Shown piece by piece: positions 28,731 to 54,501 of a DNA stretch of 64,000 bases. The position numbers and the translations under genes are program-made. Each line of letters starts with the position of its first letter. Position 1 is the first letter of the stretch. The stretch comes from Escherichia coli O127:H6 str. E2348/69 (lineage in GTDB: Bacteria; Pseudomonadota; Gammaproteobacteria; Enterobacterales; Enterobacteriaceae). The stretch lies in assembly GCF_000026545.1 (NCBI RefSeq), contig NC_011601.1; one strand, written 5' to 3'. The notes beneath the pieces were generated by a model. That model did no database searches, was not told the origin of the DNA, and saw nothing but the letters and a program-made list of their open reading frames with translations.

Positions 28731-28746
28731 TGTGAATCCTTTCACA
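28731..28746. promoter_or_regulatory. Perfect CRP-consensus palindrome TGTGA-N6-TCACA, 93 bp upstream of preT
   Basis: TGTGAATCCTTTCACA read from sequence. Confidence 0.5.
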
Positions 28747-35405: not shown

Positions 35406-35421
35406 TGTGAAATCACTCACA
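35406..35421. promoter_or_regulatory. CRP-consensus palindrome TGTGA-N6-TCACA between galS and mglB
   Basis: TGTGAAATCACTCACA read from sequence; its role in the mgl promoter is inferred. Confidence 0.45.
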
Positions 35422-46504: not shown

Positions 46505-47593
46505 ATGAACGACAGGGAAAAGCAGATTCTTAAAATTTTACGGCGTAACCCGCTGATTCAACAGAATGAAATCGCCGATATTCTGCAAATCAGCCGCTCA
46601 CGTGTTGCCGCTCATATTATGGATTTGATGCGCAAGGGTTTGATTAAAGGCAAAGGATATATCCTTACCGAGCAGGATTACTGTGTGGTTGTGGGTGCAA
46701 TCAATATGGATATTCGCGGAATGGCGGATATCCGTTACCCGCAAGCAGCCTCTCATCCAGGTTCTGTTCACTGTTCCGCAGGCGGCGTCGGACGTAATAT
46801 CGCGCATAACCTGGCTCTGCTTGGTCGGGATGTGCATTTAATTTCAGCTATTGGCAACGATTTTTACGGCGAGACATTACTGGAAGAAACGCGCCGCTCG
46901 GGCGTGAACGTTTCAAACTGCATTCGTCTGCATGGACACAGCACTGCAACTTATCTCGCTATCGCTAATAAGCAGGAAGAAACTATCCTGGCAATCAATG
47001 ACACACATATTCTGCAACAGCTAACGCCTCAACTGCTCAATACTTCACGGGACTTGATTCGCCATGCTGGTGTGGTGCTGGCTGATTGTAATCTCACACC
47101 TGAAGCCCTGGAGTGGGTCTTTACCATTGCTGATGAAATTCCGATGTTTGTCGATACCGTTTCCGAATTTAAAGCGAACAAAGTAAAAAACTGGTACAGC
47201 CGGATCCACACTCTGAAACCGACACAAAATGAACTGGAAATTTTGTGGGGGCAACCGATTAAAGACGACAACGATCGTATCAGAGCTGTAAATTCGCTGC
47301 ATCAACAAGGTGTTAAACGCATTTTTGTTTATCTGAAAGATGAATCTGTATTTTGCAGCGATAAGGATGGAGAACAATTTTTGCTGACCGCGCCAGCGCA
47401 TACGACAGTAGACAGTTTTGGTGCTGACGATGGTTTTATGGCGGGCCTGGTATATAGCTTTCTTGAAGGATACAGTTTCCGCGACAGCGCCCGTTTTGCG
47501 ATGGCCTGCGCGGCAATTTCACGCGCCAGCGGCAGCTTAAACAACCCTACCCTGTCTGCCGATAACGCGCTTTCATTAGTGCCAATGGTGTAA
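46505..47593 (+). CDS. yeiI: Fusion of an N-terminal winged-HTH domain to a PfkB-family carbohydrate/nucleoside kinase
   Basis: 362 aa; residues ~1-55 look like a helix-turn-helix (QNEIADILQISRSRVAAHIMDLMRKGLI); the rest contains GGVGRNIAHNLALLG and aligns with PsuK. Confidence 0.88.
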   Translation: MNDREKQILKILRRNPLIQQNEIADILQISRSRVAAHIMDLMRKGLIKGKGYILTEQDYCVVVGAINMDIRGMADIRYPQAASHPGSVHCSAGGVGRNIAHNLALLGRDVHLISAIGNDFYGETLLEETRRSGVNVSNCIRLHGHSTATYLAIANKQEETILAINDTHILQQLTPQLLNTSRDLIRHAGVVLADCNLTPEALEWVFTIADEIPMFVDTVSEFKANKVKNWYSRIHTLKPTQNELEILWGQPIKDDNDRIRAVNSLHQQGVKRIFVYLKDESVFCSDKDGEQFLLTAPAHTTVDSFGADDGFMAGLVYSFLEGYSFRDSARFAMACAAISRASGSLNNPTLSADNALSLVPMV

Positions 47594-50788: not shown

Positions 50789-50828
50789 ATTGCCGGATGC
50801 AACGCTTAATAAGGTGTACATCCGGCAA
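50789..50828. repeat. REP-like palindrome between convergent yeiL and psuT
   Basis: TTGCCGGATGCAACGCTTAATAAGGTGTACATCCGGCAA is a degenerate REP. Confidence 0.6.
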
Positions 50829-50834
50829 TGAAAC

Positions 50835-52085
50835 TCAAGCTAAACCAATAAAGAACCCGGCAATGGTCGCGCTCATCAGGTTAGAAAGTGTCGCCGCCGC
50901 CAGCGCCCGTAAACCAAGCTGGGCGATTTCCGGCGCACGTTTTGGCGAAATAGCCGAAAACGCCCCAACGACAACACCGATAGAACCAAAGTTAGCAAAA
51001 CCACACAGCGCAAAGGAGATGATCGCCACGGTTTTCACTTCCAGCGTGCCGCCCGTTTGCAGATATGGCGAAAAACTCAGGTAAGCGACAAATTCGTTAA
51101 TCGCCAGTTTCTGCCCAATCAAACTTCCGGCAAGATTTGCATCACTCCAGTCCACCCCCATAATCCATGCCAACGGGGCCAGCACATAGCCGAAAATGCT
51201 TTCCAGAGAGACATTGGCAAAACCAAACCAGCCGCCAACTCCACCAATAATGCCGTTGATCAGCGCAATGATCGCCACAAATGCCATTACCACCGTCGCC
51301 ACACCGGCGGCGATTTTCAGCCCGGTCATTGCACCGTTCGCCGCAGCTTCAATAATGCTTTTTGGCGGTGTTTCGCTAAACGACAGATTTTCAAATGTCA
51401 CCTGCGAAGGCTCGGTGGCTGGGCTAAGAATACGTGCAAACAAAATACCACCAGGGATCGCCATCAGCGATGCCGCTAACAGGTAGTCAATTGGTACGCC
51501 CATTCCGGCATAACCAATCATCATCGAACCGGCAATGGACGCCATCCCGCTACAAATTGCCGTAAATAGCTCGTTGCGATTCATGCGATCGATAAACGGT
51601 TTAACGATCGCCGGGATCTCATTTTGCCCGAGGAAAATAGTGGTAACCGCAACAAAAGATTCGATTTTGCTGATGTTGAGGGCTTTCTGAAAAATACTAC
51701 CAAGAATGCGGATTAGCAGCCCCATCACGCCAATGTAGTACAGCAGGCTGATGAGCGCGGTAACGAAAATAATCGCCGGGAGTACGCGAAAGGCGAAGAT
51801 AAAGCCCGCACCGTCAAACAGAACATCCATTTTGGGACCGACCAGCGAACCAAAAATAAAGGCACTTCCTGCGTCACTGTAGGACATCACTTTATGGACG
51901 CCTAATGCCGCCTGCTCTACTGCCCATTTTCCCGGGGGAAAATAGAGCATGATGCCACCAATGGCAATTTGCAGCAGCAGCGCAGCCCCAACCGTGCGCA
52001 AGCTGATGCTCTTTTTATTTACCGACAACACAAAGGCAATTGCCAGCAATACCACCATCCCCACAACACTTCTCATTATATCCAT
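50835..52085 (-). CDS. psuT: NupC-family pseudouridine/nucleoside transporter
   Basis: 416 aa; paralogue of nupX. Confidence 0.9.
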   Translation of the reverse strand: MDIMRSVVGMVVLLAIAFVLSVNKKSISLRTVGAALLLQIAIGGIMLYFPPGKWAVEQAALGVHKVMSYSDAGSAFIFGSLVGPKMDVLFDGAGFIFAFRVLPAIIFVTALISLLYYIGVMGLLIRILGSIFQKALNISKIESFVAVTTIFLGQNEIPAIVKPFIDRMNRNELFTAICSGMASIAGSMMIGYAGMGVPIDYLLAASLMAIPGGILFARILSPATEPSQVTFENLSFSETPPKSIIEAAANGAMTGLKIAAGVATVVMAFVAIIALINGIIGGVGGWFGFANVSLESIFGYVLAPLAWIMGVDWSDANLAGSLIGQKLAINEFVAYLSFSPYLQTGGTLEVKTVAIISFALCGFANFGSIGVVVGAFSAISPKRAPEIAQLGLRALAAATLSNLMSATIAGFFIGLA

Positions 52086-52178
52086 AATGATTTTCCCTTC
52101 ATGCCAGTAAACCCGGCGTCAGCGCCAGGTTTTGGTATGTTTGATGAGTACGGGCGACGGCTTTCTGCCCACCAGAAA

Positions 52179-53117
52179 TTAACCCACGAGACGCTGATAT
52201 TCTTTGGCAATTTCGCTCGCCAGAATGGCGTTATTAAAGACCAGTTGAATATTGGATTTCAGGCTATCACCGCCGGTTAGCTCCGCAACACGCGCCAGCA
52301 GGAACGGTGTACTCTCTTTCCCAATAACACCCTGTTCTTCGGCTTCAGCAACGGCTTGATCAATTGCTGCATTGATGGTTTCTTCTGGCATCGCAAACTG
52401 TTCCGGGATCGGGTTCGCTACCACCAGGCCGCCGTTCAAACCGGTTTGCCACTTCACTGCCATCGCGCGAGCAATTTCGCGGGCACTGTCAAGACGAATG
52501 CTGACTTCAAATGGGCTGGTTCGGCAGAAAAACGCAGGCAGCGCTTTTGTCTGATAACCAATTAACGGTACACCGAAGGTTTCTAAATATTCTGTTGTTA
52601 ATCCTAAATCGAGAATAGATTTTGCCCCCGCACAAACAACAGTGACATTGGTATTTGCCAGTTCCTGTAAATCGGCAGAAATATCGAAGGTATGTTCCGC
52701 TCCGCGATGCACACCACCAATACCTCCGGTTGCAAAAACTTTAATCCCAGCCAGTGCTGCAATAATCATGGTTGATGCAACGGTAGTCGCGCCATTTTTC
52801 CCTGCAGCAACGACAAAAGGTAAATCACGACGACTAACTTTCGTCACGTTATGTCCTTCACGGCCCAGCAATTCGATTTCTTCTTTACTTAAGCCCACTT
52901 TCATCACACCGCCAATAATGGCGATAGTGGCTGGTACTGCGCCCTGTTTACGAATTGTTTCTTCTACTTCAATTGCGGTTTGGGCATTTTGTGGGAATGG
53001 CATTCCGTGAGAAATTATGGTCGATTCCAGCGCAACAACCGGTTTTTTATTTTTTAAAGCATCCTGTACTTCAGCGGATATTTGTAATAATTCAGGGGAC
53101 AGAGTTAATTCAGACAT
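52179..53117 (-). CDS. psuG: Pseudouridine-5'-phosphate glycosidase
   Basis: 312 aa; start overlaps the psuK 3' end by 13 nt. Confidence 0.9.
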   Translation of the reverse strand: MSELTLSPELLQISAEVQDALKNKKPVVALESTIISHGMPFPQNAQTAIEVEETIRKQGAVPATIAIIGGVMKVGLSKEEIELLGREGHNVTKVSRRDLPFVVAAGKNGATTVASTMIIAALAGIKVFATGGIGGVHRGAEHTFDISADLQELANTNVTVVCAGAKSILDLGLTTEYLETFGVPLIGYQTKALPAFFCRTSPFEVSIRLDSAREIARAMAVKWQTGLNGGLVVANPIPEQFAMPEETINAAIDQAVAEAEEQGVIGKESTPFLLARVAELTGGDSLKSNIQLVFNNAILASEIAKEYQRLVG

Positions 53118-54046
53118 TCTGTGTTCTCCACTAACGATGTAACATTGGCAATTGATAATTCAGGGTTGTTGGTATATTCACAGGCAAGTGCCATTGACGA
53201 ACATCCCTGCGCAAATCGAACAGAATCGATAAACGGCATACCGTCTACCCAACAGGAGGCCAGCCCCGCCATCATGGCGTCGCCTGCCCCAGTAACATTG
53301 ATGACATTCGTTTTAATAGGGGCCGACCACCCACTTTCACCGTTGATATCACTGTAGTAAACGCCATCCCCTCCCATGCTCAGCACCAGGCGGTTCAGGC
53401 CGTGTTGATGAAACCAGGCGGCGACCTTTGCGACATCTTCACGTCCGGAAAGTGCAATTCCGCTCAACGTTTCGGCTTCAAGACGGTTAGGTTTTAACGT
53501 ATGGATTTTGCTCAGATGATCGCGGATTTTGACGCATTTCCATGCCGATACCGGATCAATAAATACAGGCGTTTCCCCGCTATTTTCCAGAACCCAGACC
53601 AGCGCCTCTTCACTAAGGTTGCAATCCGCGACAATAACCTTTGCACCGCGAATAAACTCCTGATGCTGGGCAAGAAATTCTGCAGAAATACAGTCACTAA
53701 TACTCATATCATTTATCGCGACAAGCATTTCTCCTGTATTATCGAGCAGTGATAAATAGCTGGATGTATTCTCACCCGGAACAATTAAGCATTTATCGAC
53801 ATAAACACCGGATTGATTAGTTTGCGCCAGTAATGATTGCCCATAAAAATCACCACCTACTGCACTTAAAAGCCAGGCATTTTTCCCCAGTAACGCCAGA
53901 TTATGAGCGATATTCCTTCCCACGCCACCTGGGGTAAATTTAATTTTTCCGGGATTCGAATCCGCATAATTCAATGGATGATGTGAATACCCAGCCACAT
54001 CAATATTCGCCGAGCCAATAATTACTATGTAGTCCTTTTCGCGCAT
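53105..54046 (-). CDS. psuK: Pseudouridine kinase (PfkB family)
   Basis: 313 aa from MREKDYIVIIGSANID; PfkB motif GGVGRNIAHNLALLG; the track ORF has a 38-codon in-frame upstream extension. Confidence 0.85.
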   Translation of the reverse strand: MREKDYIVIIGSANIDVAGYSHHPLNYADSNPGKIKFTPGGVGRNIAHNLALLGKNAWLLSAVGGDFYGQSLLAQTNQSGVYVDKCLIVPGENTSSYLSLLDNTGEMLVAINDMSISDCISAEFLAQHQEFIRGAKVIVADCNLSEEALVWVLENSGETPVFIDPVSAWKCVKIRDHLSKIHTLKPNRLEAETLSGIALSGREDVAKVAAWFHQHGLNRLVLSMGGDGVYYSDINGESGWSAPIKTNVINVTGAGDAMMAGLASCWVDGMPFIDSVRFAQGCSSMALACEYTNNPELSIANVTSLVENTECLN

Positions 54047-54345
54047 AGCACGCCCCCTGGCAATAAATTGCCAACGAAGAAATTGGGTAAAATAGTCATT
54101 ACAGTCAATAAGACTATTAGAGCACGTGTTCAGATTTAAACACATGTTCATAATAAGCATGTTTAACGTAATGTAAATCGATCAGAAAAAACGAAATCGG
54201 CCAGATATGAAGGCGGTCACAAAATTTGTCTATTTATGCAGCAACAAAAGAGAAAGTTGTGATGTGTAACACACAATATGGCAGGCAAGAAAAAGGGCAG
54301 AGATGTTTCTGCCCTCAGATTGTTGACAATGCGCGCTTTGTTCAT

Positions 54346-54444
54346 GCTGGATGTGGCGTAAACGCCTTATCCGACCTACAAAAGCGCAAAAATTCAATAT
54401 ATTGCAGGGTTCATGTAGGTCTGATAAGCATAGCGCATCAGGCA
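54346..54444. repeat. REP pair between psuK and fruA
   Basis: GCTGGATGTGGCGTAAACGCCTTATCCGACCTAC and GTAGGTCTGATAAGCATAGCGCATCAGGCA. Confidence 0.8.
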
Positions 54445-54501
54445 ATTTTGCGTTTGTCATCATCGGGGCAGAGATGTCTCAGCCCCGATGATGAAGAGAA
54501 A

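What the first reader, a model, noticed from the sequence alone, without database searches (positions are those of the whole stretch)
54046..54160. In-frame 38-codon upstream extension of psuK
The frame stays open to an ATG at 54160, 38 codons upstream of the start I used. The extension is hydrophobic and Cys-rich (MLIMNMCLNLNTCSNSLIDCNDYF), so it is probably non-coding read-through, but an alternative longer isoform cannot be excluded from sequence alone.
Basis: seen in the sequence. Interest (0 to 1): 0.2.

Follow-up and report, generated by a model that had tools for sequence, protein, structure and literature searches.

The report
Chance open frame over psuK promoter
The 38 extra codons in front of the pseudouridine kinase gene are not a longer protein but a chance open frame lying across the gene's own promoter, repressor-binding site and untranslated leader, so the annotated start is correct and the finding is ordinary.

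Summary
On the minus strand the psuK frame stays open from the annotated ATG (54046) up to an ATG at 54160, 38 codons upstream, and the peptide is as quoted. It is not a coding extension. (1) An open run of this length is expected by chance in 8-14% of sequences of this composition. (2) About 4200 of 5426 E. coli genomes carry a different allele with two in-frame stops there. E. albertii, the closest allele, has lost the ATG and has a TAA. In 36 other Enterobacteriaceae the open run varies from 3 to 50 codons, while the start ATGCGYGAAAAGGA is conserved. (3) ATG 54160 has no Shine-Dalgarno sequence (-1.8 kcal/mol against -10.8 for 54046). (4) It lies inside the 16-nt spacer of a conserved sigma-70 promoter (-35 54177-54172, -10 54155-54150), so the transcript should start near 54143, downstream of it. 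A recurrent adaptive SNP published for K-12 maps to the third base of that -35 hexamer. (5) Solved PsuK structures are of the 313-aa protein. The "extension" therefore holds the promoter, a conserved palindromic operator, a covarying leader hairpin and the ribosome-binding site. A side lead is that the uncharacterised winged-helix kinase paralogue YeiI may be the repressor that binds this operator.

The parts
54047..54160 (-). The 38-codon in-frame open stretch of the finding. It is non-coding and overlaps the promoter spacer, the -10 element, the transcription start, the operator, the leader and the Shine-Dalgarno sequence.
   Evidence: ORF. Chance level. Stops in the other allele and in E. 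albertii.
54206..54221 (-). CRP-like site TGTGAccgcctTCATA, centred about -70.5 from the predicted start (a class I position).
   Evidence: Conserved with fixed spacing to the -35 in most of the 38 aligned Enterobacteriaceae upstream regions. Pattern hit. Binding was not tested.
54172..54177 (-). -35 hexamer TTTACA of the psuK sigma-70 promoter.
   Evidence: Promoter scan, 10 of 12 matches. TTTAC is conserved in E. coli alleles, in Enterobacteriaceae and in Yersinia-type loci. The recurrent adaptive K-12 SNP 2257444 A>C maps to its third base, TTTACT>TTGACT.
54158..54160 (-). The upstream ATG of the finding, located inside the 16-nt promoter spacer.
   Evidence: Read directly from the sequence with the hexamer coordinates. 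It is AAG in E. albertii.
54150..54155 (-). -10 hexamer TATTAT.
   Evidence: The TAnnAT pattern is conserved in nearly all aligned species.
54141..54145 (-). Predicted transcription start (about 54143), 15-19 nt downstream of ATG 54160.
   Evidence: Inferred from the geometry of the -10 element. No mapped start-site data could be retrieved.
54123..54146 (-). Palindromic operator CATGTGTTTaaatctGAACACGTG, with core TGTTY-N6-RAACA, overlapping the start site.
   Evidence: Most conserved block. Unique in the 64-kb window. The same element precedes all 26 genes for PsuK fused to a winged-helix DNA-binding domain in Yersinia, Serratia, Hafnia and Photorhabdus.
54057..54074 (-). Leader stem-loop UUGGCAA-uuua-UUGCCAG, whose 3' arm runs into the Shine-Dalgarno sequence.
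   Evidence: Covariation on 29 species: 82.6% of cells paired, 5 of 7 pairs with changes on both sides, 0 of 500 shuffles reach the score. It is present in the minimum-energy fold of the leader.
54053..54058 (-). Shine-Dalgarno sequence AGGGGG, 6 nt before the true start.
   Evidence: Duplex with the 16S rRNA 3' end is -10.8 kcal/mol, against -1.8, +0.7 and -0.8 for the three upstream ATGs.
53105..54046 (-). psuK coding sequence, 313 aa plus stop, with the true start at 54046.
   Evidence: PGAP annotation. NCBIfam NF007355 matches residues 1-313 of 313. PDB 7VKP, 313 aa, aligns to ORF residues 39-351.
54293..54316 (-). Terminator-like hairpin plus T run, closing the fruBKA unit upstream of the psuK promoter.
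   Evidence: Conserved in both allele classes.
46505..47593 (+). yeiI, encoding a winged-helix domain fused to a PfkB kinase-like domain. It is the candidate repressor for the operator (hypothesis).
   Evidence: NF007416 matches 1-362. Its winged-helix domain is 72% identical to that of the Yersinia fused PsuK.

Best explanation
The 114 nt between ATG 54160 and the annotated psuK start are the regulatory front end of the psuK-psuG-psuT operon, not coding sequence. RNA polymerase with sigma-70 uses the -35 TTTACA (54177-54172) and the -10 TATTAT (54155-54150). The upstream ATG sits in the spacer between them, so the mRNA should begin near 54143 and would not contain it. A CRP-like site at about -70.5 probably makes the promoter cAMP-dependent. 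A 24-bp palindrome (core TGTTY-N6-RAACA) overlaps the start site and is the likely binding site of a repressor. The roughly 97-nt leader ends in a conserved hairpin that abuts a strong Shine-Dalgarno sequence, and translation starts at 54046 to give the 313-aa kinase. The frame is open only because this allele happens to lack stop triplets there. Shown here: the open frame and its chance level, its closure in other alleles and species, the conservation pattern, the Shine-Dalgarno energies, the hairpin covariation and the mapping of the published adaptive SNP to the -35. Inferred: the exact transcription start, CRP binding, repressor binding and the function of the hairpin.
For: Frame closed elsewhere:
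- In the K-12-type allele the same frame reads ...ILVD*QGW*FFTRGRAMREKDY. That allele class is 60-80% identical and is found in 4206 of 5419 matching records.
- E. albertii (PsuK 96% identical) has ATG>AAG and CAA>TAA.
- In 36 further Enterobacteriaceae the open run is 3-50 codons with no conserved start.

Conservation is of the DNA type:
- An island covers the -35, -10 and operator, flanked by poorly conserved sequence with indels not in multiples of three.

Promoter:
- The scan gives 10 of 12 matches.
[quoted passage not shown] This changes TTTACT to TTGACT.

Translation signals and protein:
- Shine-Dalgarno duplex energy is -10.8 against -1.8, +0.7 and -0.8 kcal/mol.
- The Pfam PfkB domain starts at ORF residue 43 and nothing matches residues 1-38.
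- PDB 7VKP and related entries are of the 313-aa protein, modelled from Arg2 (PMC9247573).
- RefSeq annotates 313 aa. The 351-aa call survives on only 37 contigs, from the early CFT073, UTI89 and APEC O1 annotations, against at least 1000 contigs for 313 aa.

Leader:
- The hairpin shows covariation.
Against: - No experimentally mapped transcription start or ribosome-profiling data for this allele could be retrieved, so exclusion of ATG 54160 from the mRNA rests on promoter geometry and on the K-12 SNP.
- Read-through from fruBKA past the terminator-like hairpin could yield rare transcripts that contain the ATG.
- Within the roughly 1200 genomes carrying this allele, the frame stays open in the variants inspected. 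The common ST131 SNP is synonymous in that frame (ACG>ACA). It also lies in the operator arm, so it is uninformative.
- The direction of the expression change caused by the K-12 SNP could not be read, because the supplementary sheet was truncated.
Confidence: 0.93

Rival explanations
1. A real, lineage-specific longer PsuK isoform (346-351 aa) is made in strains carrying this allele, translated from ATG 54160, 54151 or 54145 on read-through or alternative transcripts.
For: The frame is open and holds three in-frame ATGs. It stays open in the inspected variants of the allele. The 351-aa product is deposited for CFT073, UTI89 and APEC O1.
Against: - The open run is at chance level.
- No Shine-Dalgarno sequence is present.
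- The ATGs lie in or next to the promoter spacer and -10, upstream of the predicted start.
- The frame is closed in E. albertii and in the other E. coli allele.
- No domain matches the extension.
- The kinase fold is complete from residue 2 of the 313-aa protein.
- Current RefSeq uses the short start.
Confidence: 0.03
2. The extension is a decayed relic of an ancestral N-terminal winged-helix DNA-binding domain, such as the one that Yersinia-type PsuK proteins carry at this position.
For: Homologues in Yersinia, Serratia, Hafnia and Photorhabdus have a 53-aa HTH_24 domain fused in frame directly upstream of the residue that aligns with PsuK Met1.
Against: - A permissive tblastn of that domain against 54001-54340 finds nothing better than E about 1.
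- Pfam finds no helix-turn-helix signal in the 351-aa ORF.
- In Yersinia the promoter and operator lie upstream of the domain's ATG. In this window they lie inside the 'extension', so most of the extension corresponds to promoter and operator, not to the domain.
Confidence: 0.03
3. The conserved palindrome is bound by a regulator other than YeiI, for example DeoR, whose operator I recall as TGTTAGAATTCTAACA with the same 5-N6-5 layout. Alternatively it acts only as an RNA hairpin at the 5' end of the mRNA.
For: The core TGTTTAAATCTGAACA shares 11 of 16 positions with the DeoR operator (from memory, not tested here). The palindrome also folds as the first hairpin of the predicted leader.
Against: The element co-occurs with the YeiI-type winged-helix domain in 26 of 26 fused genes. 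Variation in the arms keeps the DNA consensus CAYRTGTTY/RAACAYRTG rather than showing free compensatory change.
Confidence: 0.25

Closest known systems
Over-long 'longest-ORF' start calls in early genome annotations (here yeiC of CFT073, AAN81155.1, 351 aa)
   Same: Exactly this 351-aa product was deposited for CFT073, UTI89 and APEC O1. It arises from taking the most upstream ATG of an open frame.
   Different: Nothing biological distinguishes it. RefSeq/PGAP and the crystal structures use the 313-aa start.
Class I CRP-dependent sigma-70 promoters with a repressor operator over the start site (lac-type logic; the malT CRP site at -70.5 is recalled from memory)
   Same: A weak -35 (TTTACA), a TGTGA-N6-TCAYA site about 70.5 bp upstream, and a palindrome spanning roughly -3 to +21.
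   Different: Neither CRP nor repressor binding has been shown for psuK in the literature I could search. The operator sequence TGTTY-N6-RAACA is not one I can assign to a characterised E. coli regulator.
PsuK fused to an N-terminal winged-helix domain in Yersinia, Serratia, Hafnia and Photorhabdus, and E. coli YeiI (NF007416)
   Same: These are real N-terminally longer members of the same kinase clade, preceded by the same -35 and operator.
   Different: Their extra 53 residues form a recognisable HTH_24 domain (E = 5e-12). The window's 38 residues match nothing.
psuKp adaptive promoter mutation in K-12 (mouse-gut and long-term stationary-phase evolution)
   Same: The same promoter. The SNP hits the -35 hexamer that is homologous to 54177-54172.
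   Different: This window's allele has the hexamers TTTACA and TATTAT (10 of 12 to consensus) against TTTACT and TACTAT (8 of 12) in K-12.

Membership tests
Real N-terminal coding extension or alternative start | The reading frame and start codon are conserved in relatives | tested here: not met
   Stops in the K-12-type allele. AAG and TAA in E. albertii. Open run of 3-50 codons in 36 species.
Real N-terminal coding extension or alternative start | A ribosome-binding site precedes the upstream start | tested here: not met
   Anti-Shine-Dalgarno duplex of -1.8, +0.7 and -0.8 kcal/mol, against -10.8 at 54046. Random ATGs in the window average -3.7.
Real N-terminal coding extension or alternative start | The start codon is present on the mRNA | tested here: inconclusive
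   Promoter geometry places the start near 54143, downstream of the ATG. No mapped 5' ends could be retrieved.
Real N-terminal coding extension or alternative start | Protein evidence for translation (initiation-site profiling, N-terminal peptides) | not testable with these tools
   No such dataset is available for this allele.
Sigma-70 promoter | -35 and -10 hexamers with a 16-18 nt spacer | tested here: met
   TTTACA, 16 nt, TATTAT: 10 of 12 matches.
Sigma-70 promoter | Conservation of the hexamers across relatives, and a functional effect of mutating them | tested here: met
   Conserved. The recurrent adaptive T>G in the -35 of K-12 changes growth (PMC9509342); the paper also suggests it may alter psuK expression, but those data (its Supplementary Data 16) could not be read.
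Sigma-70 promoter | A mapped transcription start 6-8 nt after the -10 | not testable with these tools
   No start-site record was found.
CRP class I site | TGTGA-N6-TCACA-like palindrome centred near -61.5, -71.5 or -82.5 | tested here: met
   TGTGAccgcctTCATA matches 9 of 10 core bases. It is centred at 54213.5, about -70.5. The spacing to the -35 is fixed in most aligned species.
CRP class I site | CRP binding or cAMP dependence | not tested
   No literature was found.
PsuK fused to a winged-helix domain, or YeiI (long form of the clade) | An N-terminal HTH_24 winged-helix domain | tested here: not met
   Pfam finds only PfkB (residues 43-333) in the 351-aa ORF. tblastn finds no relic.
Pseudouridine kinase PsuK (NF007355) | Full-length match above the curated cut-off starting at the annotated Met | tested here: met
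   709 bits (cut-off 540), residues 1-313 of 313. PDB 7VKP, E = 1.5e-189.

The most novel reading that the evidence does not exclude
The palindrome inside the 'extension' (TGTTY-N6-RAACA, 54123-54146) is the operator of a regulator derived from an enzyme. In Yersinia, Serratia, Hafnia and Photorhabdus a single PsuK fused to a winged-helix domain would both phosphorylate pseudouridine and repress its own promoter. In Escherichia, Citrobacter and Klebsiella the two roles are split between PsuK, which lacks the domain, and the uncharacterised paralogue YeiI, which keeps it and whose PfkB anion-hole motif is altered (FGADD in place of TGAGD). YeiI would then be the pseudouridine-sensing repressor of psuKGT, which would give this uncharacterised protein a function.
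Probability: 0.4. Interest if true: 0.5.

Novelty: not a real feature. Interest (0 to 1): 0.1.

Why it matters
- **For annotation:** the 313-aa start of psuK is right, and the 351-aa entries still found for CFT073, UTI89 and APEC O1 are over-extended calls.
- **For biology:** the stretch is the control region of pseudouridine catabolism. K-12 repeatedly acquires a SNP in its -35 hexamer in the mouse gut.
- **Natural variation:** this allele has promoter hexamers closer to consensus than K-12. That may matter for growth on pseudouridine, a nucleoside present in urine.
- **A testable lead:** the conserved operator, together with the winged-helix kinase relatives, gives a specific hypothesis for the unknown function of YeiI.

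Tried and rejected
- **Sigma-54 promoter in the leader (TGGCAA-N-TTGCC).** Rejected. The GG-to-GC spacing is one base short of the consensus as I recall it. The GC is lost in the K-12 allele (TTACC). The pairs covary as an RNA stem, including G-U.
- **Cra/FruR site at cTGAACACGTGCTC, considered because fruBKA is adjacent.** By eye the match needs an extra base and is absent in the K-12 allele. Not pursued.
- **Relic of the winged-helix domain.** tblastn and Pfam were negative.
- **Rfam.** Only sub-threshold REP-type hits (naRNA4, ES036) upstream at 54340-54422, and nothing in the extension or leader.
- **Mapped transcription starts.** The Cappable-seq supplement had no entry near the expected coordinates. 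The dRNA-seq paper is not held.
- **Direction of the psuK expression change caused by the K-12 SNP.** The supplementary sheet was truncated.
- **Literature on CRP or a repressor at psuK/yeiC.** Nothing relevant was found.
- **Large protein searches and structure prediction.** Not run. The genome loci, the PDB match and the exact-sequence look-up already answered the question.

Full report
**Context**

The window is E. coli, 100% identical over the region to strain PSUO2. On the minus strand the gene order is fruK, fruA, a 455-nt intergenic region, then psuK, psuG and psuT.

**Observation**

The ORF listing reports a 351-aa ORF at 53105..54160 on the minus strand. Its first 38 residues are MLIMNMCLNLNTCSNSLIDCNDYFTQFLRWQFIARGRA. 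RefSeq/PGAP starts psuK at the position equal to window 54046, giving 313 aa.

The frame is open for 45 codons upstream and holds ATGs at -38, -35 and -33. This is no more than chance would give:
- 8.4% of shuffles of the 114 nt are stop-free in frame.
- The local stop-triplet frequency predicts a probability of 0.14.

**Is the extension coding? Comparative evidence**

Only 1199 of 5426 complete E. coli genomes carry this allele. They include the type strain ATCC 11775 and ST131. About 4200 genomes carry an allele only 60-80% identical over this stretch.

- In the K-12-type allele the same frame reads NMHTMSTCLNMNTCLNRLCSIYILVD*QGW*FFTRGRAMREKDY, with two in-frame stops.
- E. albertii has a PsuK 96% identical to the window's. 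Its upstream ATG is AAG, and CAA has become TAA eight codons before the start.
- In 36 further Enterobacteriaceae the start context ATGCGYGAAAAGGA (MREK[DE]Y) is conserved. The upstream open run varies from 3 to 50 codons with no conserved start codon.
- The alignment shows islands of DNA conservation separated by divergent stretches with indels not in multiples of three. Coding sequence does not look like this.

**Translation signals and protein evidence**

- The duplex with the 3' end of 16S rRNA is -10.8 kcal/mol for the 20 nt before 54046 (AGGGGG, 6 nt spacing).
- For the three upstream ATGs it is -1.8, +0.7 and -0.8 kcal/mol, weaker than the average random ATG in the window at -3.7.
- Pfam places the PfkB domain at ORF residues 43-333 and finds nothing in residues 1-38.
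- NCBIfam's pseudouridine-kinase model matches the 313-aa protein end to end.
- The solved E. coli PsuK structures (7VKP and others) are of the 313-aa protein, which aligns to ORF residues 39-351. The structure paper models the chain from Arg2 (PMC9247573).
- The 351-, 348- and 346-aa versions exist in sequence databases only as minority gene calls. The 351-aa version is on 37 contigs, including AAN81155.1 from CFT073, ABE07908.1 and ABJ01564.1. The 313-aa version is on at least 1000 contigs.

**What the 114 nt actually are**

The promoter scan finds TTTACA (54177-54172), a 16-nt spacer, then TATTAT (54155-54150), 10 of 12 matches to consensus. ATG 54160-54158 lies inside that spacer. The transcript should therefore start near 54143, 15-19 nt downstream of the ATG.

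The two hexamers sit in the best-conserved block:
- between the two E. coli allele classes;
- across 38 Enterobacteriaceae upstream regions, as TTTACT and TAnnAT;
- and in 26 Yersinia, Serratia, Hafnia and Photorhabdus loci.

There is also independent functional support. K-12 evolving in the mouse gut repeatedly acquires the SNP 2257444 A>C in the psuK/fruA intergenic region. [quoted passage not shown] An A>C "psuKp" allele also recurs in three long-term stationary-phase populations (PMC7858067), though I could not verify its position.

I calibrated the published coordinates against NC_000913.3 using four srlR mutations from the same tables. All four reproduce the reported amino-acid changes only at an offset of +1978. 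With that offset, the SNP is T>G on the psuK sense strand, 126 nt before the ATG. That is the third base of the -35 hexamer, changing TTTACT to TTGACT, which is closer to the consensus TTGACA.

Three further conserved elements lie around the promoter.
- **A CRP-like site.** TGTGAccgcctTCATA at 54221-54206 is centred about -70.5, with spacing to the -35 fixed in most aligned species.
- **A palindrome.** CATGTGTTTaaatctGAACACGTG at 54146-54123 has the core TGTTY-N6-RAACA. It overlaps the start site and is unique in the 64-kb window.
- **A leader hairpin.** UUGGCAAuuuaUUGCCAG at 54074-54057 abuts the Shine-Dalgarno sequence. Its pairs covary: C-G becomes U-A or U-G and G-C becomes A-U. Across 29 species 82.6% of cells are paired, 5 of 7 pairs change on both sides, and 0 of 500 shuffles reach the score, against at most 58% paired when the partners are slid.

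A terminator-like hairpin at 54316-54293, conserved in both alleles, separates this unit from fruBKA.

**Mechanism**

psuKGT is transcribed from a weak, probably CRP-assisted sigma-70 promoter. A repressor bound at the start-site palindrome probably controls it. Translation begins at 54046. The upstream ATG is promoter DNA.
- *Shown:* the ORF and its chance level, its closure elsewhere, the conservation pattern, the Shine-Dalgarno energies, the hairpin covariation and the SNP mapping.
- *Inferred:* the exact transcription start, CRP binding, repressor binding and the role of the hairpin.

**A side lead on the repressor**

The homologues found in Yersinia, Serratia, Hafnia and Photorhabdus are 58% identical to PsuK in the kinase part. 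They carry an N-terminal 53-aa winged-helix domain (HTH_24, E = 5e-12) fused in frame. In all 26 such loci the gene is preceded by TTTACT, 17 nt, TAAAAC, then TGTTTAAAAACAAACA just before the ATG. That is the same -35 and operator as at E. coli psuK.

E. coli's own copy of this domain is in YeiI (window 46505-47593, NF007416). It is 72% identical over 60 residues to the Yersinia domain and is the only such domain in the window. YeiI's PfkB motif reads FGADD where PsuK has TGAGD. YeiI is still described as uncharacterised (PMC9061257, PMC12506659) and is listed among hypothetical transcription factors (PMC6055005).

The hypothesis that YeiI represses psuKGT through this operator is untested. 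DeoR, whose operator has a similar layout (from memory), is a rival. The 38-codon stretch is not a decayed winged-helix domain: tblastn and Pfam are negative, and in Yersinia the operator lies upstream of the domain.

**Verdict**

As a protein isoform the extension is not a real feature. It is a chance open frame over an ordinary promoter, operator and leader, and it has been mis-called in some older annotations. Interest in the finding itself is low.

Noticed in passing
window 50800-54500 (psuT, psuG, psuK and the intergenic region): There is a sharp break in similarity to K-12 exactly at the fruA stop. fruK and fruA are 96-100% identical. The intergenic region and psuK are 60-79%, psuG 84-90% and psuT 88-96%. 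The window's PsuK is 96% identical to E. albertii's but only 88-89% identical to those of other Escherichia. This looks like an old allelic dimorphism or an imported segment, carried by 1199 of 5426 E. coli genomes.
   Followed up: partly
window 54150-54177 against K-12 (L007 3398-3425): This allele's promoter hexamers (TTTACA and TATTAT, 10 of 12) are closer to consensus than K-12's (TTTACT and TACTAT, 8 of 12). K-12 repeatedly gains a change towards consensus in the -35 in the mouse gut. The natural allele, found in lineages such as ST131 and the type strain ATCC 11775, may already express psuKGT more strongly. Not tested.
   Followed up: no
window 46505-47593 (+), yeiI; loci L042-L078: YeiI and the Yersinia-type PsuK share a winged-helix domain fused to a PfkB kinase. 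YeiI's conserved TGAGD motif reads FGADD, which suggests an altered or lost catalytic function. The Yersinia-type gene scores about equally against the PsuK and YeiI NCBIfam models, 457 and 440 bits, both below the cut-offs. It looks like the unduplicated form of the two E. coli genes.
   Followed up: partly
window 54335-54490: The fruA-psuK spacer of this allele holds REP/BIME-type repeats. There are sub-threshold Rfam hits to naRNA4 (54340-54376) and ES036 (54380-54422), and this part matches other chromosomal sites in many genomes. K-12 has different sequence here. In strain EC15 PGAP annotates a 48-aa hypothetical protein on the opposite strand.
   Followed up: no
L005 (E. coli 2018-02-2CC): In this strain an IS1 transposase gene ends 3 nt into a psuK annotated with a slightly longer coding sequence (951 nt). 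IS1 has therefore replaced the native promoter region.
   Followed up: no
L079 (E. coli Z1323CEC0015): This strain has a mosaic: the upstream region is of the window's type and the psuK 5' end is of the K-12 type. It also has a 1-nt deletion in the G run of the Shine-Dalgarno sequence, and psuK is annotated as a frameshifted pseudogene.
   Followed up: no
window 28731-28746 and 35406-35421: Two perfect CRP-type palindromes, TGTGA-N6-TCACA, occur elsewhere in the window. The pattern gave 5 matches where 0.24 were expected by chance. The neighbouring genes were not examined.
   Followed up: no
window 54089-54116: A second leader hairpin, AAUAGUC...GACUAUU, is followed by UUUU. Citrobacter sequences have AATAACC...GGTTATTTTT at the same place, but the K-12 allele does not. 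It could be an attenuator-like element. Not analysed.
   Followed up: no
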